Shown: positions 381 through 60,634 of the stretch, piece after piece
How positions within the stretch are numbered: the first letter of the stretch is position 1
Layout of the letters: the number at the start of each line of letters is the position of its first letter
Assembly (NCBI GenBank): GCA_009914755.4
Contig: CP086569.2
Coordinates: 35,872,001 to 35,936,000 of the forward strand
Direction: 5' to 3'
Length of the DNA: 64,000 nucleotides
From: the human T2T-CHM13v2.0 reference genome, Homo sapiens
Notes under the pieces: model-generated
Database searches by the model: none
What the model was told of the DNA's origin: nothing
Seen by the model: the letters and a program-made list of their open reading frames with translations, nothing else
Position numbers and translations under genes: made by a program

Positions 381-3300
381 TGCAATTTAATAAAATAGGA
401 TCAAAAGAATGGAATGGAATGGAAAGGAATCGAAACGAAAGGAATGGAGACAGATGGAATGGAATGGAACAGAGAGCAATGGTATAGAATGGAATGGAAT
501 CATCTGGAATGGAATTGAATGGAATGGAATAACATGAAATGGAATGGAATGGAATGGAATGCCCTTGAATTAAATGGACTGGAATGGAATGGACTCGAAC
601 AGAGTGGAATGGAAAGTGTTGAAATAGAATGGAATGGACTCCTTTGGAATGGTCTAGTATGCAATGCAATCGACTGGCAGGGAATCAAAAGGAATGTAAT
701 CGAATGGATTGGACTGGAATGCAATGGACTCGAATAGATTGGAAACGGAATGCAAAGGAATGGAATGGAATAGTATGGAATGGAATGGAAAGGAATGGAG
801 TGGAATAGACTAGAGTGGAATGGAATGGACTGGAAAGCAATGGACTGGAATGGAACTTTCTTGAATGGACTGGAATCAAACGGAATGGAATGCAATGCAA
901 TCAAATGGCATGGAATCAAATGGAATGAAAGGGAATCAAATGGAATTGAATCGAATGGAATCGAATGGATTGGAAAGGAATAGAATGGAATGGAATGGAA
1001 TTGACTCAAATGGAATGTACTAGAATGGAATGGATTCGAATGGAAGGCAAAGGAATGGAATCTATTGGAATGGACTGTAATGGAATGGAATGGAAGGGAT
1101 TGGAATGGACTCGAATGGAATGGACTGCAATAGAAAGGATTCGAATGGAATGAAAAAGAATTGAATGGAATAGAACAGAATGGAATCAAATCGAATGAAA
1201 TGGAGTGGAATAGAAAGGAATGGAATGAAATGGAATGGAAAGGATTCGAATGGAATGCAATCGAATGGAATGGAATCGAATGGAATGGAATAAAGTGGAA
1301 GAAAACTGGCAAGAAATGGAATCGAAATGAATGGAGTGTTATGGAACGGACTCAAAAGGAATTGAATGTAATAGAATGGAGTGGAGTGGACTCGAATATA
1401 ATGGACTGGAATGGAATGAAATCACATGGAATGGGAACGAATGGAATGGAATGGAAAGGAATGGAATCGAATGGAAAGGAATCGAATGGAAGGGAATGAA
1501 ATTAAATCAACAGGAATGGAAGGGAATAGAATAGACGGTAATGGAATGGACTCGAATAGAATGGACACGAATGCTCAAATTGAATGGACTCGAATGGAAT
1601 GGAAACGAAAGGAATGTCATCGAATGGAATTGAATCGATTGGAATGAAATCGCATAGAATGGAGTGGAATCAAATGGAATTGAATCGAAAGGAAAGGAAG
1701 CGAATGGACTGAAATGAAATGGAATGGAATTGAATGGAAAGTAATGCAATGGAATAGAATGGAACGAAATTTCACGGAATGGAATCAAACTGAATGGAAT
1801 CAAATCAATGGAATCTAATCAAGTGGAAAGGAAAGGAATTGAATGGAGTAGATTGGATTGGATGGGATTGGAATGAAATGTACTGGAAAGGACTCGAGTT
1901 TCATGAAACGGAATGGAATGAATTGGAACGGAATGGACTCGAATGGAATGGAATGTCATGGAATGGCATCAAATGGAATGGCATCAAATGGAATGGAATC
2001 GAATGCAATGGAATGCTATGGAATGGAATTGAATGCATTGGAATGGAATGTCCTCTAATGGAATAGATTCGAGTGGAATGGAATCGAATATAATGGAGTC
2101 GAATGAAATGGAATTGAAAGGAATGGGATCGAATACAATGGAATATACTGGAATGTAATGTAATGAACTCGAATGTAATTGACTGGAATGGAATGTACAT
2201 GAATGGAATGTAATCGAATGGAAAGTAATCCAATGGAATAGAATCTAATGCAATAAAATCGACTCAGATAGAGTAGAATGTAATGGAATTGAGTGCAGTG
2301 CAATGGAATGGAATGGAATGGAATGCAATGGAATGGAATGGAATGGAAAGGAATGGAATGGAATGGGATGGAATGGTATGGAATGGATAGTAATGGACTG
2401 GAGTGAAATGGACTGGAAATGAATGGACTCAAATTGAAAGGGCTCGAAAGGAATGGAGTCAAAAGGAATGGTCTGGAATGGAATGAACACGAATGTAATG
2501 CAATCCAATAGAATGGAATCGAATGGCATGGAATATAAAGAAATGGAATCGAAGAGAATGGAAACAAATGGAATGGAATTGAATGGAATGGAATTGAATG
2601 GAATGGGAACGAATGGAGTGAAATTGTATGCAGTAGAAGAGAATAGAATGGAATGCAAGCGAAAGGAAAGGAATGGATTGGAATGGAATGGAATTCATTG
2701 GAATGGAAGGGAATGTAGTGTAATGGACAGGCCTGGAATAAAGTGGAATGCTACGGTCTCCAATGGAATAAAAATGTATGGAATGGAATGCAATGAAACG
2801 GAATCGAATGTCATAGAATATAATGGAATGCAAAAAAATGGAATCCAAAATCATTGACTGGAAAGGCTGTGTGTCGAAAGGAATTGACTCCAATGGAATG
2901 GAATCGAATGGAATGGAAGTGAATAGAATGGAACTAAATCGAATGGAATGGAATTGATAGGAACGGAATGGAAAGGAATGCAATGATTTGGCATGGAATG
3001 GAATCGAATGGCATCGAATGGAATGGAATGGAATGCAATGGAATGGAATGTATTAGAATGTAATGAACTTTAATGGAATGTACTCGAATGGATTCGACTG
3101 GAATGGAATGTTCTGGAAGTGAATGGACTCCAATGGAATGGATTCAAAAGGAATGGAGTCGTACGGAATGGAATCTAATGGAATGGAATTAAATGGAAAT
3201 GAATCAAATTGAATAGAACGGAATTGAATTGAATGGAATCGAATGCAATGGAATCTAATGAAACGGAAAGGAAAGGAATGGAATGGAATGGAATGGGCTG

Positions 3301-3933
3301 GAATGGAAAGGAATCGAAACGAATGGAATGGAATCGAACTGAAGAGACTGGAATGGAATGCACTGGAATGGAAGGGAGTGTAATGGAAGGTTCTCGAAAA
3401 AAATGGAATCGAATGGAATGGAATTGAGTGGAACGGAATAGAGTCGAATGGAATTGAATGGAATGGAATGGACTAGAGTGAAATGGAATCGAACCACAAG
3501 GAATGGACAGGAATAGAATGGTCTCGAATTGAATGGAATCGTATGGAATGGCATCAAACGGAATGGAATGGACAGCCACGGAATGGAATGCACTCGAATG
3601 CAATGGAGTCGAAACTAATGGACTGGAATAGAATGGACTCGACTGGTACGGACTCCAATGGAATGGAATCGAATGGAAGGGAATCGAACGGAATGGACTC
3701 GAAGGGAAAAGACTGCAATGGAAAGGTCTCGAATGGAATGGAAATTAATGGAATGGAACGGAATCGAATGAAATGGAGTCAAAAGGAATGGAATCGAATG
3801 GCAAGAAATCGAATGCAATGGAATCGCAAGGAATTGATGTGAACGGAACGGAATGGAATGGAATCCAAAGGAATGGAATAGAATGGAATGGAATCGAATG
3901 GAAAGGACTCGAATGGAAATCACTCGAACAGAA
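381..3933 (+). repeat. HOR unit 1, 3553 bp (~3.55 kb HSat3 higher-order repeat, tentatively DYZ1-type)
   Basis: Anchor motif tgcaatttaataaaatagg at 381 and again at 3934. One GGCC site at ~2730 (ggacaggcctggaataaagtggaatgctacggtctc). The hypervariable island triplet reads ggctgTGTgtcg at ~2866. Confidence 0.8.
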
Positions 3934-6900
3934 TGCAATTTAATAAAATAGGATCAAATGTAATGGAATGGAATGGAAAGGAATCGAAACGAAAGGAATG
4001 GAGACAGATGGAATGGAATGGAACAGAGAGCAAAGGTATAGAATGGAATGGAATCATCTGGAATGGAATTGAATGGAATGGAATAATATGAAATGGAATG
4101 GAATGGAATGGAATGCCCTTGAATTAAATGGACTGGAATGGAATGGACTCAAACAGAGTGGAATGGAAAGTGTGGATATAGAATGGAATGAACTCCTTTG
4201 GAATGGTCTAGTAGACAATGCAATCGACTGGCAGGGAATCAAAAGGAATGTAATCGAATGGATTGGACTGGAATGCAATGGACTCGAATAGATTGGAAAC
4301 GGAATGCAAAGGAATGGAATGGAATAGTATGGAATGGTATGGAAAGGAATGGAGTGGAATAGAATAGAGTGGAATGGAATGGACTGGAAAGCAATGGACT
4401 GGAATGGAACATTCTTGAATGGACTGGAATCAAACGGAATGGAATGCAATGCAATCAAATGGCATGGAATAAAATAGAATGAAAGAGAATCAAATGGAAT
4501 TGAATCGAATGGAATCGAATGGATTGGAAAGGAATAGAATGGAATGGAATGGAATTGACTCAAATGGAATGGACTAGAATGGAATGGATTCGAATGGAAG
4601 GCAAAGGAATGGAATCTATTGGAATGGACTGTAATGGAATGGAATGGAAGGGATTGGAATGGACTCGAATGGAATGGACTGCAATAGAAAGGATTCGAAT
4701 GGAATGAAAAAGAATTGAATGGAATAGAACAGAATGGAATCAAATCGAATGAAATGGAATGGAATAGAAAGGAATGGAATGAAATGGAATGGAAAGGATT
4801 CGAATGGAATGCAATCGAATGGAATGGAATCGAACGGAATGGAATAAAATGGAAGAAAACTGGCAAGAAATGGAATCGAAATGAATGGAGTGTTATGGAA
4901 CGGACTCAAAAGGAATTGAATGTAATAGAATGGAGTGGAGTGGACTCGAATATAATGGACTGGAATGGAATGAAATCACATGGAATGGGAACGAATGGAA
5001 TGGAATGGAAAGGAATGGAATCGAATGGAAAGGAATCGAATGGAAGGGAATGAAATTGAATCAACAGGAATGGAAGGGAATAGAATAGACGGTAATGGAA
5101 TGGACTCGAATAGAATGGACACGAATGCTCAAATTGAATGGACTCGAATGGAATGGAAACGAAAGGAATGTCATCGAATGGAATTGAATCGATTGGAATG
5201 AAATCGCATAGAATGGAGTGGAATCAAATGGAATTGAATCGAAAGGAAAGGAAGCGAATGGACTGAAATGAAATGGAATGGAATTGAATGGAAAGTAATG
5301 CAATGGAATAGAATGGAACGAAATTTCACGGAATAGAATCAAACTGAATGGAATCAAATCAATGGAATCTAATCAAATGGAATGGAAAGGAATTGAATGG
5401 AGTAGATTGGATTGGATGGGATTGGAATGAAATGTACTGGAAAGGACTCGAATTTCATGAAACGGAATGGAATGAATTGGAACGGAATGGACTCGAATGG
5501 AATGGAATGTCATGGAATGGCATCAAATGGAATGGCATCAAATGGAATGGAATCGAATGCAATGGAATGCTATGGAATGGAATTGAATGCATTGGAATGG
5601 AATGTCCTCTAATGGAATGGATTCGAGTGGAATGGAATCGAATATAATGGAGTCGATTGAAATGGAATTGAAAGGAATGGGATCGAATACAATGGAATAT
5701 ACTGGAATGTAATGTAATGAACTTGAATGTAATTGACTGGAATGTAATGTACATGAATGGAATGTAATCGAATGGAAAGTAATCCAATGGAATAGAATCT
5801 AATGCAATAAAATCGACTCAGATAGAGTAGAATGTAATGGAATGGAGTGCAGTGCAATGGAATGGAATGGAATGGAATGCAATGGAATGGAATGGAATGG
5901 AATGGAATGGAATGGTGTGGAATGGATAGTAATGGACTGGAGTGAAATGGACTGGAAATGAATGGACTCAAATTGAAAGGGCTCGAAAGGAATGGAGTCA
6001 AATGGAATGGTCTGGAATGGAATGAACACGAATGTAATGCAATCCAATAGAATGGAATCGAATGGCATGGAATATAAAGAAATGGAATCGAAGAGAATGG
6101 AAACAAATGGAATGGAATTGAATGGAATGGAATTGAATGGAATGGGAACGAATGGAGTGAAATTGTATGCAGTAGAAGAGAATAGAATGGAATGCAAGCG
6201 AAAGGAAAGGAATGGATTGGAATGGAATGGAATTCATTGGAATGGAAGGGAATGTAGTGTAATGGACAGGCCTGTAATAAAGTGGAATGCTACGGTCTCG
6301 AATGGAATAAAAATGTATGGAATGGAATGCAATGAAACGGAATCGAATGTCATAGAATGTAATGGAATGCAAAAAAATGGAATCCAAAATCATTGACTGG
6401 AAAGGCTGGATGTCGAAAGGAATTGACTCCAATGGAATGGAATCGAATGGAATGGAAGTGAATAGAATCGAACTAAATCGAATGGAATGGAATTGATAGG
6501 AACGGAATGGAAAGGAATGCAATGATTTGGCATGGAATGGAAACGAATGGTATCTAATGGAATGGAATGTAATGTAATGGAATGGAATGTATTAGAATGT
6601 AATGAACTTTAATGGAATGTACTCGAATGGATTCGACTGGAATGGAATGTTCTGGAAGTGAATGGACTCCAATGGAATGGATTCAAACGGAATGGAATCG
6701 TACGGAATGGAATCTAATGGAATGGAATTAAATGGAAATGAATCAAATTGAATAGCACGGAATTGAATTGAATGGAATGGAATGCAATGGAATCTAATGA
6801 AACGGAAAGGAAAGGAATGGAATGGAATGGAATGGGCTGGAATGGAAAGGAATCGAAACGAATGGAATGGAATCGAACTGAAGAGACTGGAATGGAATGC

Positions 6901-7472
6901 ACTGGAATGGAAGGGAGTGTAATGGAAGGTTCTCGAAAAAAATGGAATCGAATGGAATGGAATTGAATGGAACGGAATAGAGTCGAATGGAATTGAATGG
7001 AATGGAATGGACTAGAGTGAAATGGAATCGAACCACAAGGAATGGACAGGAATAGAATGGTCTCGAATTGAATGGAATCGTATGGAATGGCATCAAACGG
7101 AATGGAATGGACAGCCACGGAATGGAATGCACTCGAATGCAATGGAGTCGAAACTAATGGACTGGAATAGAATGGACTCGACTGGTACGGACTCCAATGG
7201 AATGGAATCGAATGGAAGGGAATCGAACGGAATGGACTCGAAGGGAAAAAACTGCAATGGAAAGGTCTCGAATGGAATGGAAATTAATGGAATGGAATGG
7301 AATCGAATGAAATGGAGTCAAAAGGAATGGAATCGAATGGCAAGAAATCGAATGTAATGGAATCGCAAGGAATTGATGTGAACGGAACGGAATGGAATGG
7401 AATCCAAAGGAATGGAATAGAATGGAATGGAATCGAATGGAAAGGACTCGAATGGAAATCACTCGAATAGAA
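3934..7472 (+). repeat. HOR unit 2, 3539 bp
   Basis: Anchor at 3934 and 7473. The ORF set is colinear with unit 1. GGCC at ~6270. Island triplet ggctgGATgtcg at ~6406. Confidence 0.8.
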
Positions 7473-10400
7473 TGCAATTTAATAAAATAGGGTCAAATGT
7501 AATGGAATGGAATGGAAAGGAATCGAAACGAAAGGAATGGAGACAGATGGAATGGAATGGAACAGAGAGCAATGGTATAGAATGGAATGGAATCATCTGG
7601 AATGGAATTGAATGGAATGGAATAATATGAAATGGAATGGAATGGAATGGAATGGAATGCCCTTGAATTAAATGGACTGGAATGGAATGGACTCGAACAG
7701 AGTGGAATGGAAAGTGTTGAGATAGAATGGAATGGACTCCTTTGGAATGGTGTAGTATGCAATGCAATCGACTGGCAGGGAATCAAAAGGAATGTAATGG
7801 AATGGATTGGACTGGAATGCAATGGACTCGAATAGATTGGAAACGGAATGCAAAGGAATGGAATGGAATAGTATGGAATGGAATGGAAAGGAATGGAGTG
7901 GAATAGACTAGAGTGGAATGGAATGGACTGGAAAGCAATGGACTGGAATGGAACTTTCTTGAATGGACTGGAATCAAACGGAATGGAATGCAATGCAATC
8001 AAATGGCATAGAATAAGATAGAATGAAAGAGAATCAAATGGAATTGAATGGAATGGAATCGAATGGATTGGAAAGGAATAGAATGGAATGGAATGGAATT
8101 GACTCAAATGGAATGGACTAGAATGGAATGGATTCGAATGGAAGGCAAAGGAATGGAATCTATTGGAATGGACTGTAATGGAATGCAATGGAAGGGATTG
8201 GAATGGACTCGAATGGAATGGACTGCAATAGAAAGGATACGAATGGAATGAAAAAGAATTGAATGGAATAGAACAGAATGGAAACAAATCGAATGAAATG
8301 GAATGGAATAGAAAGGAATGGAATGAAATGGAATGGAAAGGATTCGAATGGAATGCAAACGAATGGAATGGAATCGAACGGAATGGAATAAAATGGAAGA
8401 AAACTGGCAAGAAATGGAATCGAAATGAATGGAGTGTTATGGAAGGGACTCAAAAGGAATTGAATGTAATAGAATGGAGTGGAGTGGACTCGAATATAAT
8501 GGACTTGAATGGAATGAAATCACATGGAATGGGAACGAATGGAATGGAATGGAAAGGAATGGAATCGAATGGAAAGGAATCGAATGGAAGGGAATGAAAT
8601 TGAACCAACAGGAATGGAAGGGAATAGAATAGACGGTAATGGAATGGACTCGAATAGAATGGACACGAATGCTCAAATTGAATGGACTCGAATGGAATGG
8701 AAACGAAAGGAATGTCATCGAATGGAATTGAATCGATTGGAATGAAATCGCATAGAATGGAGTGGAATCAAATGGAATTGAATCGAAAGGAAAGGAAGCG
8801 AATGGACTGAAATGAAATGGAATGGAATTGAATGGAAAGTAATGCAATGGAATAGAATGGAACGAAATTTCACGGAATGGAATCAAACTGAATGGAATCA
8901 AATCAATGGAATCTAATCAAATGGAATGGAAAGGAATTGAATGGAGTAGATTGGATTGGATGGGATTGGAATGAAATGTACTGGAAAGGACTCGAATTTC
9001 ATGAAACGGAATGGAATGAATTGGAACGGAATGGACTCGAATGGAATGGAATGTCATGGAATGGCATCAAATGGAATGGCATCAAATGGAATGGAATCGA
9101 ATGCAATGGAATGCTATCGAATGGAATGGAATGCATTGGAATGGAATGTCCTCTAATGGAATGGATTCGAGTGGAATGGAATCGAATATAATGGAGTCGA
9201 ATGAAATGGAATTGAAAAGAATGGGATCGAATACAATGGAATATACTGGAATGTAATGTAATGAACTCGAATGTAATTGACTGGAATGGAATGTATATGA
9301 ATGGAATGTAATCGAATGGAAAGTAATCCAATGGAATAGAATCTAATGCAATAAAATCGACTCAGATAGAGTAGAATGTAATGGAATGGAGTGCAGTGCA
9401 ATGGAATGGAATGGAATGGAATGCAATGGAATGGAATGGAATGGGATGGAATGGTATGGAATGGATAGTAATGGACTGGAGTGAAATGGACTGGAAAGGA
9501 ATGGACTCAAATTGAAAGGGCTCGAAAGGAATGGAGACAAATGGTATGGTCTGGAATGGAATGAACACGAATGTAATGCAATCCAATAGAATAGAGTCGA
9601 ATGGCATGGAATATAAAGAAATGGAATCGAAGAGAATAGAAACAAATGGAATGGAATTGAATGGAATGGAATTGAGTGGAATGGGAACGAATGGAGTGAA
9701 ATTGTATGCAGTAGAAGAGAATAGAATGGAATGCAAGCGAAAGGAAAGGAATGGATTGGAATGGAATGGAATTCATTGGAATGGAAGGGAATGTAGTGTA
9801 ATGGACAGGCCTGGAATAAAGTGGAATGCTACGGTCTCGAGTGGAATAAAAATGTATGGATTGGAATGCAATGAAACGGAATCGAATGTCATAGAATGTA
9901 ATGGAATGCAAAAAAATGGAATCCGAAATCATTGACTGGAAAGGCTGGGTGTCGAAAGGAATTGACTCCAATGGAATGGAATCGAATGGAATGGAAGTGA
10001 ATAGAATCGAACTAAATCGAATGGAATGGAATTGATAGGAACGGAATGGAAAGGAATGCAATGATTTGGCATGGAATGGAATCGAATGGCATCGAATGGA
10101 ATGGAATGGAATGCAATGGAATGGAATGTATTAGAATGTAATGAACTTTAATGGAATGTACTCGAAAGGATTTGACTGGAATGGAATGTTCTGGAAGTGA
10201 ATGGACTCCAATGGAATGGATTCGAAAGGAATGGAATCGTACGGAATGGAATCTAATGGAATGGAATTAAATGGAAATGAATCAAATTGAATAGCACGGA
10301 ATTGAATTGAATGGAATGGAATGCAATGGAATCTAATGAAACGGAAAGGAAAGGAATGCAATGGAATGGAATGGGCTGGAATGGAAAGGAATCGAAACGA

Positions 10401-11011
10401 ATGGAATGGAATCGAACTGAAGAGACTGGAATGGAATGCACTGGAATGGAAGGGAGTGTAATGGAAGGTTCTCGAAAAAAATGGAATCGAATGGAATGGA
10501 ATTGAGTGGAACGGAATAGAGTCGAATGGAATTGAATGGAATGGAATGGACTAGAGTGAAATGGAATCGAACCACAAGGAATGGACAGGAATAGAATGGT
10601 CTCGAATTGAATGGAATCGTATGGAATGGCATCAAACGGAATGGAATGGACAGCCACGGAATGGAATGCACTCGAATGCAATGGAGTCGAAACTAATGGA
10701 CTGGAATAGAATGGACTCGACTGGTACGGACTCCAATGGAATGGAATCGAATGGAAGGGAATCGAACGGAATGGACTCAAAGGGAAAAGACTGCAATGGA
10801 ACGGTCTCGAATGGAATGGAAATTAATGGAATGGAATGGAATCGAATGAAATGGAGTCAAAAGGAATGGAATCGAATGGCAAGAAATCGAATGTAATGGA
10901 ATCGCAAGGAATTGATATGAACGGAACGGAATGGAATGGAATCCAAAGGAATGGAATAGAATGGAATGGAATCGAATGGAAAGGACTCGAATGGAAATCA
11001 CTCGAATAGAA
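7473..11011 (+). repeat. HOR unit 3, 3539 bp
   Basis: Anchor at 7473 and 11012. GGCC at ~9809. Island triplet ggctgGGTgtcg at ~9946. Confidence 0.8.
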
Positions 11012-14000: not shown

Positions 14001-14545
14001 TCGAAAGGAATGGAATTGAATGGAACGGAATAGAGTCGAATGGAATTCAATGGAATGGAATGGACTAGAGTGAAATGGAATCGAACCACAAGGAATGGAC
14101 AGGAATAGAATGGTCTCGAATTGAATGGAATCGTATGGAATGGCATCAAACGGAATGGAATGGACAGCCACGGAATGGAATGGACACCCACGGAATGGAA
14201 TGCACTCGAATGCAATGGAGTCGACACTAATGGACTGGAATAGAATGGACTCGACTGGTACGGAGTCCAATGGAATGGAATCGAATGGAAGGGAATCGAA
14301 CGGAATGGACTCGAAGTGAAAAGACTGCAATGGAAAGGTCTCCAATGGAATGGAAATTAATGGAATGGAATGGAATCGAATGAAATGGAGTCAAAAGGAA
14401 TGGAATCGAATGGCAAGAAATCGAATGTAATGGAATCGCAAGGAATGGATGTGAACGGAACGGAATGGAATGGAATCCAAAGGAATGGAATAGAATGGAA
14501 TGGAATCGAATGGAAAGGACTTGAATGGAAATCACTCGAATAGAA
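11012..14545 (+). repeat. HOR unit 4, 3534 bp. Subtype carrying a 10-bp deletion and a 20-bp tandem duplication.
   Basis: Anchor at 11012 and 14546. 10-bp deletion at ~11219: atggactgga|ctcgaacag lacks the atggaatgga present at 7671-7690 in unit 3. 20-bp near-perfect tandem duplication at 14161-14200: tggacagccacggaatggaa followed by tggacacccacggaatggaa. Island triplet ggctgGGGgtcg at ~13467. Confidence 0.8.
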
Positions 14546-45900: not shown

Positions 45901-46458
45901 GGAGTGTAATGGAAGGTTCTCGAAAAAAATGGAATCGAATGGAATGGAATTGAATGGAACGGAATAGAGTCGAATGGAATTGAATGGAATGGAATGGACT
46001 AGAGTGAAATGGAATCGAACCACAAGGAATGGACAGGAATAGAATGGTCTCGAATTGAATGGAATCGTATGGAATGGCATCAAACGGAATGGAATGGACA
46101 GCCACGGAATGGAATGCACTCGAATGCAATGGAGTCGAAACTAATGGATGGAATAGAATGGACTTGACTGGTACGGACTCCAATGGAATGGAATCGAATG
46201 GAACGGAATCGAACGGAATGGACTCGAAGGGAAAAGACTGCAATGGAAAGGTCTCCAATGGAATGGAAATTAATGGAATGGAATGGAATCGAATGAAATG
46301 GAGTCAAAAGGAATGGAATCGAATGGCAAGAAATCGAATGTAATGGAATCGCAAGGAATTGATGTGAACTGAACGGAATGGAATGGAATCCAAAGGAATG
46401 GAATAGAATGGAATGGAATCGGATGGAAAGGACTCGAATGGAAATCACTCGAATAGAA
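42906..46458 (+). repeat. HOR unit 13, 3553 bp
   Basis: Anchor at 42906 and 46459. Island triplet ggctgGATgtcg at ~45394. Still aligned to unit 6 at offset 24836, but with visibly lower identity. Confidence 0.8.
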
Positions 46459-49400: not shown

Positions 49401-50007
49401 AATGGAATCGAACTGAAGAGACTGGAATGGAATGCACTGGAATGGAAGGGAGTGTAATGGAATGTTCTCGAAAAAAATGGAATCGAATGGAATGGAATTG
49501 AGTGGAACGGAATAGAGTCGAATGGAATTGAATGGAATGGAATGGACTAGAGTGAAATGGAATCGAACCACAAGGAATGGACAGGAATAGAATGGTCTCG
49601 AATTGAATGGAATCGTATGGAATGGCATCAAACGGAATGGAATGGACAGCCACGGAATGGAATGCACTCGAATGCAATGGAGTCGAAACTAATGGACTGG
49701 AATAGAATGGACTCGACTGGTACGGACTCCAATGGAATGGAATCGAATGGAAGGGAATCGAACGGAATGGACTCGAAGGGAAAAGACTGCAATGGAACGG
49801 TCTCGAATGGAATGGAAATTAATGGAATGGAATGGAATCGAATGAAATGGAGTCAAAAGGAATGGAATCGAATGGCAAGAAATCGAATGTAATGGAATCG
49901 CAAGGAATTGATGTGAACGGAACGGAATGGAATGGAATCCAAAGGAATGGAATAGAATGGAATGGAATCGAATGGAAAGGACTCGAATGGAAATCACTCG
50001 AATAGAA
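46459..50007 (+). repeat. HOR unit 14, 3549 bp, close to units 3 and 10
   Basis: Anchor at 46459 and 50008. ORFs 46479..47396, 47423..47887 and 47985..48317 match 32329..33246, 33273..33737 and 33835..34167 at a constant offset of 14150. Confidence 0.8.
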
Positions 50008-53000
50008 TGCAATTTAATAAAATAGGATCAAATGTAATGGAATGGAATGGAAAGGAATCGAAACGAAAGGAATGGAGACAGATGGAATGGAATGGAACAG
50101 ATAGCAATGGTATACAATGGAATGGAATCATCTGGAATGGAATTGAATGGAATGGAATAATATGAAATGGAATGGAATGGAATGGAATGGAATGCCCTTG
50201 AATTAAATGGACTGGACTCGAACAGAGTGGAATGGAAAGTGTTGAGATAGAATGGAATGGACTCCTTTGGAATGGTCTAGTATGCAATGCAATCGACTGG
50301 CAGGGAATCAAAAGGAATGTAATGGAATTGATTGGACTGGAATGCAATGGACTCGAATAGATTGGAAACGGAATGCAAAGGAATGGAATGGAATAGTATG
50401 GAATGGAATGGAAAGGAATGGAGTGGAATAGACTAGAGTGGAATGGAATGGACTGGAAAGCAATGGACTGGAATGAAACTTTCTTGAATGGACTGGAATC
50501 AAACGTAATGGAATGCAATGCAATCAAATTTCATGGAATAAGATAGAATGAAAGAGAATCAAATGGAATTGAATCGAATGGAATCGAATGGATTGGAAAG
50601 GAAGAGAATGGAATGGAATGGAATTGACTCAAATGGAATGGACTAGAATGGAATGGATTCGAATGGAAGGCAAAGGAATGGAATCTATTGGAATGGACTG
50701 TAATGGAATGGAATGGAAGGGATTGGAATGGACTCGAATGGAATGGACTGCAATAGAAAGGATTCGAATGGAATGAAAAAGAATTGAATGGAATAGAACA
50801 GAATGGAATCAAATCGAATGAAATGGAATGGAATAGAAAGGAATGGAATGAAATGGAATGGAAAGGATTCGAATGGAATGCAATCGAATGGAATGGAATC
50901 GAACGGAATGGAATAAAATGGAAGAAAACTGGCAAGAAATGGAATCGAAATGAATGGAGTGTTATGGAACGGACTCAAAAGGAATTGAATGTAATAGAAT
51001 GGAGTGGAGTGGACTCGAATATAATGGACTGGAATGGAATGAAATCACATGGAATGGGAACGAATGGAATGGAAAGGAATGGAATCGAATGTAAAGGAAT
51101 CGAACGGAAGGGAATGAAATTGAATCAACAGGAATGGAAGGGAATAGAATAGACTGTAATGGAATGGACACGAATAGAATGGACACGAATGCTCAAATTG
51201 AATGGACTCGAATGGAATGGAAAGGAAAGGAAAGTCATCGAATGGAATTGAATCGATTGGAATGAAATCGCATAGAATGGAGTGGAATCAAATGGAATTG
51301 AATCGAAAGGAAAGGAAGCGAATGGACTGAAATGAAATGGAATGGAATTGAATGGAAAGTAATGCAATGGAATAGAATGGAACGAAATTTCACGGAATGG
51401 AATCAAACTGAATGGAATCAAATCAATGGAATCTAATCAAATGGAATGGAAAGGAATTGAATGGAGTATATTGGATTGGATGGGATTGGAATGAAATGTA
51501 CTGGAAAGGACTCGAATTTCATGAAACGGAATGGAATGAATTGGAACGGAATGGACTCGAATGGAATGGAATGACATGGAATGGCATCAAATGGAATGGC
51601 ATCAAATGGAATGGAATCGAATACAATGGAATGCTATGGAATGGAATGGAATGCATTGGAATGGAATGTCCTCTAATGGAATGGATTCGAGTGGAATGGA
51701 ATCGAATATAATGGAGTCGAATGAAATGGAATTGAAAGGAATGGGATCGAATAGAATGGAATATACTGGAATGTAATGTAATGAACTCGAATGTAATTGA
51801 CTGGAATGGAATGTACATGAATGGAATGTAATCGAATGGAAAGTAATCCAATGGAATAGAATCTAATGCAATAAAATCGACTCAGATAGAGTAGAATGTA
51901 ATGGAATGGAGTGCAGTGCAATGGAATGGAATGGAATGGAATGCAATGGAATGGAATGGAATGGAATGGAATGGAATGGAATGGGATGGAATGGGATGGA
52001 ATGGTATGGAATGGATAGTAATGGACTGGAGTGAAATGGACTGGAAAGGAATGGACTCAAATTGAAAGGGCTCGAAAGGAATGGAGACAAATGAAATGGT
52101 CTGGAATGGAATGAACACGAATGTAATGCAATCCAATAGAATGGAGTCGAATGGCATGGAATATAAAGAAATGGAATCGAAGAGAATGGAAACAAATGGA
52201 ATGGAATTGAATGGAATGGAATTGAATGGAATGGGAACGAATGGAGTGAAATTGTATGCAGTAGAAGAGAATAGAATGGAATTCAAGCGAAAGGAAAGGA
52301 ATGGATTGGAATGGAATAGAATTCATTGGAATGGAAGGGAATGTAGTGTAATGGACAGGCCTGGAATAAAGTGGAATGCTACGGTCTCGAATGGAATAAA
52401 AATGTATGGAATGGAATGCAATGAAACGGAATCGAATGTCATCGAATGTAATGGAATGCAAAAAAATGGACTCCAAAATCATTGACTGGAAAGGCTGGGT
52501 GTCGAAAGGAATTGACTCCAATGGAATGGAATCGAATGGAATGGAAGTGAATAGAATCAAACTAAATCGAATGGAATGGAATTGATAGGAACGGAATGGA
52601 AAGGAATGCAATGATTTGGCATGGAATGGAATCGAATGGCATCAAATGGAATGGAATGGAATGCAATGGAATGGAATGTATTAGAATATAATGAACTTTA
52701 ATGGAATGTACTCGAATGGATTCGACTGGAATGGAATGTTCTGGAAGTGAATGGACTCCAATGGAATGGATTCCAAAGGAATGGAATCGTACGGAATGGA
52801 ATCTAATGGAATGGAATTAAATGGAAATGAATCAAATTGAATAGCACGGAATTGAATTGAATGGAATGGAATGCAATGGAATCTAATGAAACGGAAAGGA
52901 AAGGAATGGAATGGAATGGAATGGGCTGGAATGGAAAGGAATCGAAACGAATGGAATGGAATCGAACTGAAGAGACTGGAATGGAAAGCACTGGAATGGA

Positions 53001-53561
53001 AGGGAGTGTAATGGAAGGTTCTCGAAAAAAATGGAATCGAATGGAATGCAATTGAATGGAACGGAATAGAGTCGAATGCAATTGAATGGAATGGAATGGA
53101 CTAGAGTGAAATGGAATCGAACCACAAGGAATGGACATGAATAGAATGGTCTCGAATTGAATGGAATCGTATGGAATGGCATCAAACGAAATGGAATGGA
53201 CAGCCACGGAATGGAATGCACTCGAATGCAATGGAGTCGAAACTAATGGACTGGAATAGAATGGACTCGACTGGTAAGGACTCCAATGGAATGGAATCGA
53301 ATGGAAGGGAAACGAACGGAATGGACTCGAAGGGAAAAGACTGCAATGGAAAGGTCTCGAATGGAATGGAAATTAATGGAATGGAATGGAATCCAATGAA
53401 ATGGAGTCAAAAGGAATGGAATCGAATGGCAAGAAATCGAATGTAATGGAATCGCAAGGAATTGATGTGAACGGAACGGAATGGAATGGAATCCAAAGGA
53501 ATGGAATAGAATGGAATGGAATCGAATGGAAAGGACTCGAATGGAAATCACTCGAATAGAA
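50008..53561 (+). repeat. HOR unit 15, 3554 bp. Mosaic: its 5' end resembles the unit-4/11 subtype.
   Basis: Anchor at 50008 and 53562. It carries the 10-bp deletion (~50216, atggactggactcgaacag). It lacks the 20-bp duplication near its 3' end, where ~53195 reads a single tggacagccacggaatggaatgcactcg. Confidence 0.75.
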
Positions 53562-56500
53562 TGCAATTTAATAAAATAGGATCAAATGTAATGGAATGGA
53601 ATGGAAAGGAATCGAAACGAAAGGAATGGAGACCGATGGAATGGAATGGAACAGAGAGCAATGGTATAGAATGGAATGGAATCATCTGGAATGGAATTGA
53701 ATGGAATGGAATAATATGAAATGGAATGGAATGGAATGGAATGGAATGCCCTTGAATTAAATGGACTGGAATGGAATGGACTCGAACAGAGTGGAATGGA
53801 AAGTGTTGAGATAGAATGGAATGGACTCCTTTGGAATGGTGTAGTATGCAATGTAATCGACTGGCAGGGAATCAAAAGGAATGTAATGGAATGGATTGGA
53901 CTGGAATGCAATGGACTCGAATAGATTGGAAACGGAATGCAAAGGAATGGAATGGAATAGTATGGAATGGAATGGAAAGGAATGGAGTGGAATAGACTAG
54001 AGTGGAATGGAATGGACTGGAAAGCAATGGACTGGAATGGAACTTTCTTGAATGGACTGGAATCAAACGGAATGGAATGCAATGCAATCAAATGGCATGG
54101 AATAAAATAGAATGAAAGAGAATCAAATGGAATTGAATCGAATGGAATCGAATGGATTGGAAAGGAATAGAATGGAATGGAATGGAATTGACTCAAATGG
54201 AATGGACTAGAATGGAATGGATTCGAATGGAAGGCAAAGGAATGGAATCTATTGGAATGGACTGTAATGGAATGGAATGGAAGGGATTGGAATGGACTCG
54301 AATGGAATGGACTGCAATAGAAAGGATTCGAATGGAATGAAAAAGAATTGAATGGAATAGAACAGAATGGAATCAAATCGAATGAAATGGAATGGAATAG
54401 AAAGGAATGGAATGAAATGGAATGGAAAGGATTCGAATGGAATGCAATCGAATGGAATGGAATCGAACGGAATGGAATAAAATGGAAGAAAACTGGCAAG
54501 AAATGGAATCGAAATGAATGGAGTGTTATGGAACGGACTCAAAAGGAATTGAATGTAATAGAATGGAGTGGAGTGGACTCGAATATAATGGACTGGAATG
54601 GAATGAAATCACATGGAATGGGAACGAATGGAATGGAATGGAAAGGAATGGAATGGAATGGAAAGGAATCGAATGGAAGGGAATGAAATTGAATCAACAG
54701 GAATGGAAGGGAATAGAATAGACGGTAATGGAATGGACTCGAATAGAATGGACACGAATGCTCAAATTGAATGGACTCGAAAGGAATGGAAAGGAAAGGA
54801 ATGTCATCGAATGGAATTGAATCGATTGGAATGAAATCGCATAGAATGGAGTGGAATCAAATGGAATTGAATCGAAAGGAAAGGAAGCGAATGGACTGAA
54901 ATGAAATGGAATGGAATTGAATGGAATGTAATGCAATGGAATAGAATGGAACGAAATTTCACGGAATGGAATCAAACTGAATGGAATCAAATCAATGGAA
55001 TCTAATCAAATGGAATGGAAAGGAATTGAATGGAGTAGATTGGATTGGATGGGATTGGAATGAAATGTACTGGAAAGGACTCGAATTTCATGAAACGGAA
55101 TGGAATGAATTGGAACGGAATGGACTCGAATGGAATGGAATGTCATCGAATGGCATCAAATGGAATGGCATCAAATGGAATGGAATCGAATGCAATGGAA
55201 TGCTATGGAATGGAATGGAATGCATTGGAATGGAATGTCCTCTAATGGAATGGATTCGAGTGGAATGGAATCGAATATAATGGAGTCGAATGAAATGGAA
55301 TTGAAAAGAATGGGATCGAATACAATGGAATATACTGGAATGTAATGTAATGAACTCGAATGTAATTGACTGGAATGGAATGTACATGAATGGAATGTAA
55401 TCGAATAGAAAGTAATCCAATGGAATAGAATGTAATGCAATAAAATCGACTCAGATAGAGTAGAATGTAATGGAATGGAGTGTAGTGCAATGGAATGGAA
55501 TGGAATGGAATGCAATGGAATGGAATGGAATGGAATGGAATGGGATGGAATGGTATGGAATGGATAGTAATGGACTGGAGTGAAATGGACTGGAAAGGAA
55601 TGGACTCAAATTGAAAGGGCTCGAAAGGAATGGAGACAAATGGAATGGTCTGGAATGGAATGAACACGAATGTAATGCAATCCAATAGAATGGAGTCGAA
55701 TGGCAGGGAATATAAAGAAATGGAATCGAAGAGAATGGAAACAAATGGAATGGAATTGAATGGAATGGAATTGAATGGAATGGGAACGAATGGAGTGAAA
55801 TTGTATGCAGTAGAAGAGAATAGAATGGAATGCAAGCGAAAGGAAAGGAATGGATTGGAATGGAATGGAATTCATTGGAATGGAAGGGAATGTAGTGTAA
55901 TGGACAGGCCTGGAATAAAGTGGAATGCTACGGTCTCGAATGGAATAAAAATGTATGGAATGGAATGCAATGAAACGGAATCGAATGTCATAGAATGTAA
56001 TGGAATGCAAAAAAATGGAATCCAAAATCATTGACTGGAAAGGCTGGGTGTCGAAAGGAATTGACTCCAATGGAATGGAATCGAATGGAATGGAAGTGAA
56101 TAGAATCAAACTAAATCGAATGGAATGGAATTGATAGGAACGGAATGGAAAGGAATGCAATGATTTGGCATGGAATGGAATCGAATGGCATCAAATGGAA
56201 TGGAATGGAATGCAATGGAATGGAATGTATTAGAATATAATGAACTTTAATGGAATGTACTCGAATGGATTCGACTGGAATGGAATGTTCTGGAAGTGAA
56301 TGGACTCCAATGGAATGGATTCCAAAGGAATGGAATCGTACGGAATGGAATCTAATGGAATGGAATTAAATGGAAATGAATCAAATTGAATAGCACGGAA
56401 TTGAATTGAATGGAATGGAATGCAATGGAATCTAATGAAACGGAAAGGAAAGGAATGCAATGGAATGGAATGGGCTGGAATGGAAAGGAATCGAAACAAA

Positions 56501-57110
56501 TGGAATGGAATCGAACTGAAGAGACTGGAATGGAAAGCACTGGAATGGAAGGGAGTGTAATGGAAGGTTCTCGAAAAAAATGGAATCGAATGGAATGCAA
56601 TTGAATGGAACGGAATAGAGTCGAATGCAATTGAATGGAATGGAATGGACTAGAGTGAAATGGAATCGAACCACAAGGAATGGACAGGAATAGAATGGTC
56701 TCGAATTGAATGGAATCGTATGGAATGGCATCAAACGAAATGGAATGGACAGCCACGGAATGGAATGCACTCGAATGCAATGGAGTCGAAACTAATGGAC
56801 TGGAATAGAATGGACTCGACTGGTAAGGACTCCAATGGAATGGAATCGAATGGAAGGGAAACGAACGGAATGGACTCGAAGGGAAAAGACTGCAATGGAA
56901 AGGTCTCGAATGGAATGGAAATTAATGGAATGGAATGGAATCCAATGAAATGGAGTCAAAAGGAATGGAATCGAATGGCAAGAAATCGAATGTAATGGAA
57001 TCGCAAGGAATTGATGTGAACGGAACGGAATGGAATGGAATCCAAAGGAATGGAATAGAATGGAATGGAATCGAATGGAAAGGACTCGAATGGAAATCAC
57101 TCAAATAGAA
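53562..57110 (+). repeat. HOR unit 16, 3549 bp
   Basis: Anchor at 53562 and 57111 (anchor variant tgaaatttaataaaatggg at 57111). ORF set colinear with other units. Confidence 0.8.
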
Positions 57111-60100
57111 TGAAATTTAATAAAATGGGATCAAATGTAATGGAATGGAATGGAAAGGAATCGAAACGAAAGGAATGGAGACAGATGGAATGGAATGGAA
57201 CTGAGAGCAATGGTATAGAATGGAATGGAATCATCTGGAATGGAATTGAATGGAATGGAATAATATGAAATGGAATGGAATGGAATGGAATGCCCTTGAA
57301 TTAAATGGGCTGGAATGGAATGGACTCCAACAGAGTGGAATGGAAAGTGTTGAGATAGCATGGAATGGACTCCTTTGGAATGGTCTAGTATGCAATGCAA
57401 TCGACTGGCAGGGAATCAAAAGGAATGTAATCGAATGGATTGGACTGGAATGCAATGGACTCGAATAGATTGGAAACGGAATGCAAAGGAATGGAATGGA
57501 ATAGTATGGAATGGAATGGAAAGGAATGGAGTGGAATAGACTAGAGTGGAATGGAATGGACTCGAAAGCAATGGACTGGAATGGAACTTTCTTGAATGGA
57601 CTGGAATCAAACGGAATGGAATGCAATGCAATCAAATGGCATGGAATAAGATAGAATGAAAGAGAATCAAATGGAATTGAATGGAATGGAATCGAATGGA
57701 TTGGAAAGGAATAGAATGGAATGGAATGGAATTGACTCAAATGGAATGGACTAGAATGGAATGGATTCGAATGGAAGGCAAAGGAATGGAATCTATTGGA
57801 ATGGACTGTAATGGAATGCAATGAAAGGGATTGGAATGGACTCGAATGGAATGGACTGCAATAGAAAGGATTCGAATGGAATGAAAAAGAATTGAATGGA
57901 ATAGAACAGAATGGAATCAAATCGAATGAAATGGAATGGAATAGAAAGGAATGGAATGAAATGGAATGGAAAGGATTCGAATGGAATGCAATCAAATGGA
58001 ATGGAATCGAACGGAATGGAATAAAATGGAAGAAAACTGGCAAGAAATGGAATCGAAATGAATGGAGTGTTATGGAATGGACTCAAAAGGAATTGAATGT
58101 AATAGAATGGAGTGGAGTGGACTCGAATATAATGGACTGGAATGGAATGAAATCACACGGAATGGGAACGAATGGAATGGAATGGAAAGGAATGGAATCG
58201 AATGGAAAGGAATCGAATGGAAGGGAATGAAATTGAATCAACAGGAATGGAAGGGAATAGAATAGACGGTAATGGAATGGACTCGAATAGAATGGACACG
58301 AATGCTCAAATTGAATGGACTCGAATGGAATGGAAAGGAAAGGAATGTCATCGAATGGAATTGAATCGATTGGAATGAAATCGCATAGAATGGAGTAGAA
58401 TCAAATGGAATTGAATCGAAAAGAAAGGAAGCGAATGGACTGAAATGAAATGGAATGGAATTGAATGGAAAGTAATGCAATGGAATAGAATGGAACGAAA
58501 TTTCACGGAATGGAATCAAACTGAATGGAATCAAGTCAATAGAATCAAATCAAATGGAATGGAAAGGAATTGAATGGAGTAGATTGGATTGGATGGGATT
58601 GGAATGAAATGTACTGGAAAGGACTCGAATTTCATGAAACGGAATGGAATGAATTGGAACGGAATGGACTCGAATGGAATGGAATGTCATGGAATGGAAT
58701 CAAATGGAATGGCATCAAATGGAATGGAATCGAATGCAATGGAATGCTATGGAATGGAATGGAATGCATTGGAATGGAATGTCCTCTAATGGAATGGATT
58801 CGAGTGGAATGGAATCGAATATAATGGAATCGAATGAAATGGAATTGAAAAGAATGGGATCGAATACAATGGAATATACTGGAATGTAATGTAATGAACT
58901 CGAATGTAATTGACTGGAATGGAATGTACATGAATGGAATGTAATCGAATGGAAAGTAATCCAATGGAATAGAATCTAATGCAATAAAATCGACTCAGAT
59001 AGAGTAGAATGTAATGGAATGGAGTGCAGTGCAATGGAATGGAATGCAATGGAATGGAATGGAATGGAATGGAATGGGATGGGATGGAATGGTATGGAAT
59101 GGATAGTAATGGACTGGAAAGGAATGGACTCAAATTGAAAGGGCTCGAAAGGAATGGAGACAAATGGAATGGTCTGGAATGGAATGAACACGAATGTAAT
59201 GCAATCCAATAGAATGGAGTCGAATGGCAGGGAATATAAAGAAATGGAATCGAAGAGAATGGAAACAAATGGAATGGAATTGAATGGAATGGAATTGAAT
59301 GGAATGGGAACGAATGGAGTGAAATTGTATGCAGTAGAAGAGAATAGAATGGAATGCAAGCGAAAGGAAAGGAATGGATTGGAATGGAATGGAATTCATT
59401 GGAATGGAAGGGAATGTAGTGTAATGGACAGGCCTGGAATAAAGTGGAATGCTACGGTCTTGAATGGAATAAAAATGTATGGAATGGAATGCAATGAAAC
59501 GGAATCGAATGTCATAGAATGTAATGCAATGCAAAAAAATGGAATCCAAAATCATTGACTGGAAAGTCTGGGTGTCGAAAGGAATTGACTCCAATGGAAT
59601 GGAATCGAATGGAATGGAAGTGAATAGAATCAAACTAAATCGAATGGAATGGAATTGATAGGAACGGAATGGAAAGGAATGCAATGATTTGGCATGGAAT
59701 GGAATCGAATGTCTTCAAATGGAATGGAATGGAATGCAATGGAATGGAATGTATTAGAATGTAATGAACTTTAATGGAATATACTCGAATGGATTCGACT
59801 GGAATGGAATGTTCTGGAAGTGAATGGACTCCAATGGAATGGATTCAAAAGGAATGGAATCGTACGGAATGGAATCTAATGGAATGGAATTAAATGGAAA
59901 TGAATCAAATTGAATAGCACGGAATTGAATTGAATGGAATGGAATGCAATGGAATCTAATGAAACGGAAAGGAAAGGAATGCAATGGAATGGAATGGGCT
60001 GGAATGGAAAGGAATCGAAACGAATGGAATGGAATCGAACTGAAGAGACTGGAATGGAAAGCACTGGAATGGAAGGGAGTGTAATGTAAGGTTCTCGAAA

Positions 60101-60634
60101 AAAATGGAATCGAATGGAATGCAATTGAATGGAACGGAATAGAGTCGAATGCAATTGAATGGAATGGAATGGACTAGAGTGAAATGGAATCGAACCACAA
60201 GGAATGGACAGGAATAGAATGGTCTCGAATTGAATGGAATCGTATGGAATGGCATCAAACGGAATGGAATGGACAGCCACGGAATGGAATGCACTCGAAT
60301 GCAATGGAGTCGAAACTAATGGACTGGAATAGAATAGACTCGACTGGTAAGGACTCCAATGGAATGGAATCGAATGGAAGGGAAACGAACGGAATGGACT
60401 CGAAGGGAAAAGACTGCAATGGAAAGGTCTCGAATGGAATGGAAATTAATGGAATGGAATGGAATCGAATGAAATGGAGGCAAAAGGAATGGAATCGAAT
60501 GGCAAGAAATCGAATGTAATGGAATCGCAAGGAATTGATGTGAACGGAACGGAATGGAATGGAATCCAAAGGAATGGAATAGAATGGAATGGAATCGAAA
60601 GGAAAGGACTCGAATGGAAATCACTCGAATAGAA
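57111..60634 (+). repeat. HOR unit 17, 3524 bp
   Basis: Anchor at 57111 and 60635 (variant tgaaatttaataaaatagg). The island region reads agtctgggtgtcg at ~59567. Confidence 0.8.

What the first reader, a model, noticed from the sequence alone, without database searches (positions are those of the whole stretch)
381..60634. ~3.55 kb higher-order repeat with one HaeIII site per unit, tentatively DYZ1 (Yq12)
Anchor-motif spacing gives 17 successive units of 3553, 3539, 3539, 3534, 3524, 3544, 3574, 3574, 3547, 3539, 3534, 3524, 3553, 3549, 3554, 3549 and 3524 bp. Each unit has a single GGCC, always in the island ggacaggcc(t/a)g(g/t)aataaagtggaatgctacggtct. A HaeIII digest would therefore release ~3.5 kb monomers. 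Established knowledge: DYZ1 is the ~3.56 kb male-specific HaeIII repeat of Yq12, built of degenerate TTCCA/GGAAT pentamers and classified as HSat3. I did not find the 10-bp CAACCCGAGT-type motif typical of 9q12-type satellite III, or its complement, in any stretch I read. Autosomal HSat3 HORs generally have other periods, but I cannot exclude one from sequence alone.
Basis: partly seen in the sequence, partly recalled or inferred. Interest (0 to 1): 0.5.

Follow-up and report, generated by a model that had tools for sequence, protein, structure and literature searches.

The report
Human Y-chromosome DYZ1 satellite array

Summary
The window has 18 GGCC (HaeIII) sites spaced 3524-3574 bp apart, all in the same sequence island.

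The repeat fills the whole window (1-64000), about 18 units, not only 381-60634. Units are 96.9-99.8% identical to each other.

- Every unit aligns full-length, as reverse complement, at 98.1-99.2% to a published 3564-bp DYZ1 HaeIII unit.
- All eight published DYZ1 primers map in the published order and at the published positions.
- Of 14 published HSat2/3 subfamily-specific 24-mers, only the HSat3A6 (DYZ1) one occurs (24 times).
- GC content (38.6%) and CpG density (1 per 35.7 bp) match published DYZ1 values.
- The 9q12-type CAACCCGA(A/G)T motif is absent.

Inside the array there is a recent ~11 kb multi-unit duplication, a tandem run of three near-identical units, and length changes almost always in 5-bp steps. 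These are the expected traces of unequal exchange and pentamer slippage.

Physical location on Yq12 could not be tested, because no human assemblies were available and the window has no flanking sequence. Verdict: already known, low interest.

The parts
1..64000 (-). Uninterrupted DYZ1 (HSat3A6) tandem array, about 18.05 units. The published TTCCA orientation is on the minus strand; the plus strand is the GGAAT strand.
   Evidence: There are 4178 GGAAT against 3 ATTCC on the plus strand. The two end pieces and all 17 units align in a single multiple alignment of repeat units. No inverted matches were found. Units are 98.1-99.2% identical to the published DYZ1 unit.
1..2731 (-). Partial unit U0, cut by the window start
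   Evidence: Aligns to unit columns 827-3624 at 97.5-98.7% identity to the other units.
2732..6270 (-). Unit U1, 3539 bp (HaeIII GG^CC to GG^CC)
   Evidence: 99.21% identical to published DYZ1, the closest of all units.
6271..9809 (-). Unit U2, 3539 bp, type A
   Evidence: 99.5% identical to U9 and 99.0% to U13.
9810..13333 (-). Unit U3, 3524 bp, type B
   Evidence: 99.8% identical to U10 (7 substitutions, 0 gaps) and 99.1% to U14.
13334..16887 (-). Unit U4, 3554 bp, type C
   Evidence: 99.7% identical to U11 (10 substitutions, 0 gaps).
16888..20421 (-). Unit U5, 3534 bp, type D
   Evidence: Same length as U12 with no gap columns against it, but 61 substitutions.
20422..23995 (-). Unit U6, 3574 bp, type E
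   Evidence: 99.8% identical to U7.
23996..27569 (-). Unit U7, 3574 bp, type E
   Evidence: 99.8% identical to U6 and 99.7% to U8.
27570..31107 (-). Unit U8, 3538 bp, type E with a different final ~350 columns (a junction)
   Evidence: All 10 substitutions against U7 lie in alignment columns 3274-3435, together with 36 gap columns.
31108..34645 (-). Unit U9, 3538 bp, type A
34646..38169 (-). Unit U10, 3524 bp, type B
38170..41723 (-). Unit U11, 3554 bp, type C
41724..45257 (-). Unit U12, 3534 bp, D-like
45258..48805 (-). Unit U13, 3548 bp, A-like
   Evidence: 99.0-99.1% identical to U2 and U9.
48806..52359 (-). Unit U14, 3554 bp, B-like
   Evidence: 99.0-99.1% identical to U3 and U10.
52360..55908 (-). 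Unit U15, 3549 bp, type F
   Evidence: 98.6-98.8% identical to U16 and U17.
55909..59432 (-). Unit U16, 3524 bp, type F
59433..62976 (-). Unit U17, 3544 bp, type F
62977..64000 (-). Partial unit U18, cut by the window end
   Evidence: Aligns to unit columns 0-1049 at 96.6-98.4% identity.
2725..2767 (.). Representative HaeIII island GGACAGGCCTGGAATAAAGTGGAATGCTACGGTCT, holding the single GGCC of each unit. It recurs at all 18 GGCC sites.
   Evidence: It overlaps published primers DYZ1 H and DYZ1 A.
381..400 (.). There are 18 copies, from 381 to 60635.
   Evidence: It corresponds to TCCTA TTTTA TTAAA TTGCA at about 2343-2362 of the published unit.
7251..18223 (.). Copy 1 of a recent multi-unit duplication (most of U2 to the start of U5)
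   Evidence: About 99.65% identical, with no gaps, to 32087-43059 at an offset of 24,836 bp (7 units).
32087..43059 (.). Copy 2 of the multi-unit duplication (most of U9 to the start of U12)
19133..30833 (.). Run of three near-identical 3574-bp-type units (U6-U7-U8), produced by local tandem amplification
   Evidence: 19133-27194 matches 22707-30768 at 99.58% with no gaps. 21243-27279 matches 24817-30833 at 99.8%.

Best explanation
The window is about 18 consecutive units of DYZ1 (HSat3 subfamily A6). DYZ1 is the male-specific ~3.5 kb HaeIII satellite that alternates with DYZ2 to form the Yq12 heterochromatin of the human Y chromosome.

Each unit is about 710 degenerate TTCCA/GGAAT pentamers. 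They have diverged enough for the 3.5 kb unit, not the pentamer, to be the unit of homogenisation. It is non-coding satellite DNA.

Shown here:
- Sequence identity to a published DYZ1 unit, and the subfamily marker.
- The period and the single HaeIII site per unit.
- Strict strand asymmetry.
- Unit-length differences in multiples of 5 bp.
- A ~11 kb multi-unit duplication 7 units apart, and a run of three near-identical units.

Inferred:
- The array is maintained and resized by unequal sister-chromatid exchange and intra-array gene conversion, in registers of one or several whole units.
- Pentamer-phase replication slippage makes the 5/10/15/20-bp indels.
- In the cell it is packaged as methylated constitutive heterochromatin.
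- With 44.5 GGAATG cores per kb, it may act as a large binding platform for TEAD-type factors, as proposed for HSat3 in general.
For: Identity with published DYZ1:
- All 17 units align full-length at 98.1-99.2% to the published 3564-bp DYZ1 unit. Gaps are almost all 5, 10, 15, 20 or 25 bp.
- Eight published DYZ1 primers map with 0-1 errors at distances from the HaeIII site that match the published coordinates. B (763-782) is found at 740-776, E (861-880) at 838-884, C/F (1668-1686) at 1664-1725, D (2564-2583) at 2557-2617 and G (2637-2656) at 2615-2675.
- Pentamer-variant counts per unit match the published table: TTCCA 226 against 235, TTCGA 57 against 60, TTCCT 32 against 33, GTCCA 29 against 29.

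Subfamily and composition:
- The HSat3A6-specific 24-mer occurs 24 times. The 24-mers of the 13 other HSat2/3 subfamilies occur 0 times.
- GC is 38.6% and CpG density 1 per 35.7 bp, against published DYZ1 values of 38% and 1 per 35 bp.
- The period of 3524-3574 bp compares with a published ~3.5-3.6 kb, 3564 bp for the sequenced unit and a modal 3569 bp in assemblies.

Turnover traces:
- 7251-18223 matches 32087-43059 at 99.65%, and U6-U8 are 99.5-99.8% identical to each other.
- 95 of 98 alignment gap runs are multiples of 5.
- The literature reports unequal exchange, sister-chromatid exchange and gene conversion in Yq12.

Other:
- No Rfam family matches.
- Six 'bacterial' contigs carrying the island are 98.7-99.7% identical to DYZ1. 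This fits the reported Yq12 contamination of bacterial assemblies.
Against: - No human genome assembly could be searched, and the window has no non-satellite flank and no DYZ2 junction. Chromosomal position is therefore inferred from sequence identity plus the literature.
- Altemose 2014 lists the HSat3A6 localisation as 'Y, 7', so a minor non-Y site for the subfamily is on record.
- No unit has the reported modal length of 3564 or 3569 bp. Units here are mostly 10-45 bp shorter.
- Neighbouring units are often only 97-98% identical, at the low end of the published '>98%'.
- The functional statements (heterochromatin, methylation, TEAD platform) are not testable from sequence. The TEAD experiments described in the passages read used XX or Y-less lines.
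- The classical sexing primers Y1.1/Y1.2 match exactly and give a 154-bp product. I recalled them from memory and could not find them in the paper library.
Confidence: 0.93

Rival explanations
1. The window is a DYZ1/HSat3A6-type array that is not on Yq12. It could be the minor chromosome 7 site listed for HSat3A6, or Yq12 material carried on another chromosome in a particular individual.
For: Altemose 2014 Table 1 gives 'Y, 7' for HSat3A6. The window has no flanks. Unit lengths differ from the modal 3564/3569 bp.
Against: A recent HSat3 preprint and the T2T-Y preprint both call the subfamily Y-specific. DYZ1 occupies over 20 Mb on the Y, so the prior for a random 64-kb DYZ1 window is overwhelmingly Yq12. 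Every unit is 98-99% identical to a unit PCR-cloned from male DNA. Length variation in 5-bp steps is reported within DYZ1 itself.
Confidence: 0.04
2. The window is an autosomal HSat3 higher-order repeat of another subfamily, such as 9q12 HSat3B5 or acrocentric HSat3A4/A5, that happens to have a ~3.5 kb period.
For: It shares GGAAT pentamer composition with all HSat3.
Against: The subfamily-specific 24-mers for HSat3A1-A5, B1-B5 and HSat2A1/A2/B all have 0 hits. CAACCCGA(A/G)T has 0 hits at up to 1 mismatch, against 3.3 expected by chance. Full-length 98-99% identity to DYZ1 leaves no room for another subfamily.
Confidence: 0.01
3. The window is the DYZ1-derived 2.7 kb repeat, or the 3.1 kb repeat, of the DYZ18 subregion at the Yq11/Yq12 border.
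For: 77% of the 2.7 kb unit is 97% identical to DYZ1, so short matches could be confused.
Against: The period here is 3524-3574 bp, not 2.7 or 3.1 kb. Each unit aligns to the whole 3564-bp DYZ1 unit with only 15-96 gap columns.
Confidence: 0.005
4. The window is a DYZ1-like array from a non-human great ape Y chromosome.
For: AATGG-type satellites occur on ape Y chromosomes, and gorilla Yq is largely heterochromatic.
Against: Divergence from a human clone (0.8-1.9%) is no larger than divergence among units within the window (0.2-3.1%). Human primers match with 0-1 errors. Rapid satellite turnover between apes makes such conservation of a 3.5 kb unit unlikely.
Confidence: 0.015

Closest known systems
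DYZ1 / HSat3A6 (human Yq12; 3564-bp HaeIII unit, e.g. GenBank KF941192; Nakahori et al. 1986)
   Same: Period, single HaeIII site, the island sequence, pentamer-variant composition, GC and CpG density, the subfamily 24-mer, primer map, and 98.1-99.2% full-length identity.
   Different: Only unit-level variants differ. Lengths are 3524-3574 bp, against 3564 bp for the sequenced unit and a modal 3569 bp. Each unit carries 28-67 substitutions against that one clone.
HSat3B5, the 9q12 satellite III (heat-shock/HSF1-bound HSat3)
   Same: It derives from the same GGAAT/CATTC pentamer and forms megabase heterochromatic arrays.
   Different: The window lacks the CAACCCGA(A/G)T decamer and the B5-specific 24-mer.
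The 2.7 kb DYZ18-subregion repeat (Hallast et al.)
   Same: It is partly derived from DYZ1, with 97% identity over 77% of its unit.
   Different: The period is 2.7 kb and part of the unit derives from DYZ18. The window units are full 3.5 kb DYZ1 units.
HSat2A2, the chromosome 1 1.77 kb repeat
   Same: It has the same architecture: a kb-scale higher-order unit built from diverged (CATTC)n-derived short repeats, and it is chromosome-specific.
   Different: It belongs to a different family, with a different period and sequence. Its 24-mer is absent from the window.

Membership tests
DYZ1 / HSat3A6 | Tandem unit of about 3.5-3.6 kb released by HaeIII (one GGCC per unit) | tested here: met
   18 GGCC sites, 17 fragments of 3524-3574 bp. 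The published unit is 3564 bp, the modal length 3569 bp.
DYZ1 / HSat3A6 | Full-length sequence similarity to a published DYZ1 unit | tested here: met
   98.1-99.2% substitution identity for all 17 units, with 15-96 gap columns, against KF941192 as printed in PMC3925983 Additional file 1.
DYZ1 / HSat3A6 | Unit built of degenerate TTCCA pentamers with the published variant spectrum | tested here: met
   Per-unit medians of TTCCA 226, TTCGA 57, TTCCT 32, GTCCA 29 and TTCTA 27, against 235, 60, 33, 29 and 25 in the published unit. TRF finds a degenerate pentamer-multiple array.
DYZ1 / HSat3A6 | Published DYZ1 primer sites present, collinear and correctly spaced | tested here: met
   Eight of eight primers from PMC3925983 Table 5 map with 0-1 errors at the expected distances from the HaeIII site.
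DYZ1 / HSat3A6 | HSat3A6 subfamily-specific 24-mer present, and those of other subfamilies absent | tested here: met
   TCGTTTCGATTCCTTTCCATTCCA occurs 24 times (as reverse complement). The 13 other subfamily 24-mers occur 0 times. Only one 24-mer per subfamily was available.
DYZ1 / HSat3A6 | GC about 38% and about 1 CpG per 35 bp | tested here: met
   38.6% GC and 1 CpG per 35.7 bp.
DYZ1 / HSat3A6 | Male-specific, located in Yq12 | not testable with these tools
   No human assembly or XX/XY read sets are available, and the window has no flanks. This rests on the literature.
DYZ1 / HSat3A6 | Arrays alternate with DYZ2 (HSat1B) blocks | tested here: inconclusive
   There is no DYZ2, Alu or AT-rich block anywhere in 1-64000. 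However, published DYZ1 blocks are 50 kb to 3.6 Mb, so a 64-kb window need not reach a junction.
9q12-type satellite III (HSat3B5) | Pentamer runs punctuated by the CAACCCGA(A/G)T decamer, plus the B5-specific 24-mer | tested here: not met
   0 matches at up to 1 mismatch on both strands, and 0 matches for the B5 24-mer.

The most novel reading that the evidence does not exclude
The order of unit types in the window (A-B-C-D, E-E-E, A-B-C-D, A-B, F-F-F) might reflect a regular multi-unit 'super-repeat' of about 14-25 kb within this DYZ1 block. That would be a level of periodicity above the 3.5 kb unit that the papers read here do not describe explicitly, rather than a one-off segmental duplication. 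The window shows only two good copies and a weaker third partial copy, so this cannot be decided here.
Probability: 0.12. Interest if true: 0.2.

Novelty: already known. Interest (0 to 1): 0.07.

Why it matters
The practical value is correct labelling. The window should be labelled human DYZ1/HSat3A6 satellite (Yq12 heterochromatin), not flagged as a candidate for discovery. The long minus-strand ORFs should not be taken for genes. Matches in 'bacterial' assemblies should be read as human contamination. The succession of unit lengths and variants could be used to place the window in a particular DYZ1 block and Y lineage once complete Y assemblies are searched.

Tried and rejected
- Literature search for the classical DYZ1 sexing primers (TCCACTTTATTCCAGGCCTGTCC and TTGAATGGAATGGGAACGAATGG) found no paper. 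Their exact matches and 154-bp spacing in the window therefore rest on my memory only, and I give them no weight.
- Nakahori 1986 (PMC311781) is not held.
- Self-BLAST of the window to outline internal duplications mostly failed, because gapped extension swallowed the off-diagonal hits. I replaced it with a column-wise comparison on the unit alignment.
- Rfam found nothing.
- ORF listing gave 62 ORFs of at least 150 aa, all on the TTCCA strand with TTG/GTG starts and recurring once per unit. I rejected them as a composition artefact, since that strand is poor in stop codons.
- I looked for an excess of CpG transitions among unit variants as a methylation footprint. There were 24 of 333 variants, against 5.8% of bases lying in CpG, so there is no clear excess. 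Polarity of the changes is unknown.
- I considered and rejected 9q12-type HSat3, the other HSat2/3 subfamilies and the 2.7/3.1 kb DYZ18-region repeats.
Full report
**Observation**

The plus strand of the window is extremely GGAAT-rich: 4178 GGAAT against 3 ATTCC, and only 8.4% C. GGCC occurs 18 times, at 2730, 6269... 62975. Spacings are 3524-3574 bp, and every site lies in the island GGACAGGCC(T/A)G(G/T)AATAAAGTGGAATGCTACGGTCT.

Cutting at GG^CC gives 17 full units of 3524-3574 bp, a left piece of 2731 bp and a right piece of 1024 bp. Both end pieces align to the units at 96.6-98.7%. The array therefore fills the whole window, not only 381-60634.

The number of GGCC sites is not itself unusual: dinucleotide shuffles give 19.8 +/- 4.4. 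The non-random features are the spacing, the constant context and the 96.9-99.8% pairwise identity of the units. For comparison, ungapped self-identity at out-of-register lags that are multiples of 5 averages only 38%. No inverted matches exist.

**What it is**

A BMC Genetics paper on DYZ1 (PMC3925983) prints a full 3564-bp DYZ1 HaeIII unit (MZT1a blood, KF941192) in its Additional file 1, and eight DYZ1 primers in its Table 5.
- The reverse complement of that unit aligns end to end with each of the 17 window units. Substitution identity is 98.1-99.2%, with 15-96 gap columns, nearly all in runs of 5, 10, 15, 20 or 25.
- All eight primers map with 0-1 errors, in the published order. Their distances from the HaeIII site match the published coordinates.
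- Any-phase counts of the pentamer variants per unit match the published unit.

Altemose et al. 2014 (PMC4022460) equate DYZ1 with HSat3 subfamily A6 and list one diagnostic 24-mer for each of 14 HSat2/3 subfamilies. Only the A6 24-mer is in the window, 24 times on the reverse strand. The other 13 are absent. The 9q12-type decamer CAACCCGA(A/G)T is absent even with one mismatch.

GC content (38.6%) and CpG density (1 per 35.7 bp) equal the values Hallast et al. give for DYZ1, 38% and 1 per 35 bp. The window's plus strand is antisense to the published unit. That orientation is reported to be the dominant one for Yq12 repeat units in Y assemblies. This is only a weak consistency, since the window's orientation in its source is unknown.

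**Internal anatomy**

Clustering the units gives the order A-B-C-D, E-E-E, A-B-C-D', A'-B', F-F-F for U2 to U17.
- The segment 7251-18223 is about 99.65% identical, without a single gap, to 32087-43059, which lies 24,836 bp (7 units) away.
- U6, U7 and U8 form a tandem run at 99.5-99.8%. U8 switches type in its last ~350 alignment columns, which marks a junction.
- Of 98 gap runs in the 17-unit alignment, 95 are multiples of 5, and 16 of the 18 distinct indel spans are multiples of 5.
- Self-identity is higher at lag 15 (0.685) than at lag 5 (0.64). TRF reports a period of 15. Three-pentamer steps are thus favoured, in line with 15 bp being the commonest indel size.

**How it most likely works**

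Shown: the window is a non-coding, strictly one-stranded array in which a 3.5 kb unit, made of about 710 diverged pentamers, is the unit of repetition. Recent events copied whole units and blocks of several units. Small length changes are quantised in pentamers.

Inferred: the array evolves by unequal sister-chromatid exchange and intra-array gene conversion in whole-unit registers, and by pentamer-phase slippage. This mechanism is proposed for Yq12 from complete assemblies, Strand-seq and pedigrees.

Also inferred from the literature, and not testable here, are constitutive hypermethylated heterochromatin and possible service as a TEAD-type factor platform. The window has 2849 GGAATG cores, 44.5 per kb, all on one strand.

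No Rfam family matches. The 62 ORFs of at least 150 aa are all on the stop-poor TTCCA strand, start with TTG or GTG and recur once per unit, so they are artefacts.

**Membership and rivals**

Every sequence-level defining feature of DYZ1/HSat3A6 that could be tested was met. Two features remain open:
- Y-linkage could not be tested, because there are no human assemblies in these tools and the window has no flanks.
- Alternation with DYZ2 is not seen, but published DYZ1 blocks (50 kb to 3.6 Mb) are usually longer than the window.

Residual doubts are the 'Y, 7' localisation listed for HSat3A6, the lack of any unit at the 3564/3569-bp lengths, and neighbour identities at the low end of the published '>98%'. 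These may mean the window lies in a somewhat diverged sub-block.

Other HSat3 subfamilies, the 2.7/3.1 kb DYZ18-region repeats and a non-human ape origin are each very unlikely, for the reasons given under the rival explanations.

**Related sequences elsewhere**

A scan of one genome per bacterial or archaeal species for the 32-nt island found six short contigs (1.0-3.6 kb). They are filed under Actinomadura, Streptomyces (two contigs), Streptosporangium, Senimuribacter and a Polyangiaceae MAG. All six are 98.7-99.7% identical over their whole length to the published DYZ1 unit. This is human contamination of the kind the T2T-Y authors reported for HSat3 and HSat1B.

**Verdict**

This is an already known element, the DYZ1 satellite, and the finding is of low interest. 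I put confidence at about 0.93 that it is DYZ1 from Yq12. The rest is mostly the untestable chromosomal address.

Noticed in passing
L001-L006 (BMRF01000076.1, CALPCJ010000043.1, NZ_JBFAJD010000109.1, BNBB01000077.1, BMTN01000077.1, CAYVXY010000078.1): Six short contigs are filed under unrelated bacteria: Actinomadura, Senimuribacter, two Streptomyces, Streptosporangium and a Polyangiaceae MAG. All are 98.7-99.7% identical over their full length to the human DYZ1 unit, so they are human Y-satellite contamination in bacterial assemblies. This matches the T2T-Y report.
   Followed up: yes
window 7251-18223 and 32087-43059; 19133-30833: There is a multi-unit (~11 kb) duplication at a 7-unit offset, about 99.65% identical with no gaps, and a run of three near-identical 3574-bp-type units. 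The resulting unit-type order is ABCD-EEE-ABCD-AB-FFF. It is undecided whether this reflects a regular super-repeat or one-off events.
   Followed up: partly
whole window: Self-identity is higher at lag 15 (0.685) than at lag 5 (0.64). TRF calls a period of 15, and 15 bp is the commonest indel size between units. A three-pentamer sub-periodicity is therefore superimposed on the pentamer.
   Followed up: partly
whole window, minus strand (e.g. 10998-11939, 35834-36775, 39388-40329): There are 62 ORFs of at least 150 aa (up to 313 aa), all on the TTCCA strand, all starting with TTG or GTG, and recurring once per unit. They come from the stop-poor composition of that strand, and could be mis-annotated as proteins in contaminated assemblies.
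   Followed up: partly
units U1-U17 (2732-62976): No unit has the published 3564-bp length or the reported modal 3569-bp length. Lengths are 3524 (x3), 3534 (x2), 3538 (x2), 3539 (x2), 3544, 3548, 3549, 3554 (x3) and 3574 (x2). Many neighbouring units are only 97-98% identical. This may indicate a diverged or peripheral sub-block of a DYZ1 array.
   Followed up: no
whole window, plus strand: There are 2849 GGAATG (TEAD core) motifs on the plus strand and none on the minus strand, 44.5 per kb. There are also 51 perfect three-unit heat-shock-element-like matches, about 3 per unit. Their relevance to transcription-factor binding on the Y array was not tested.
   Followed up: no
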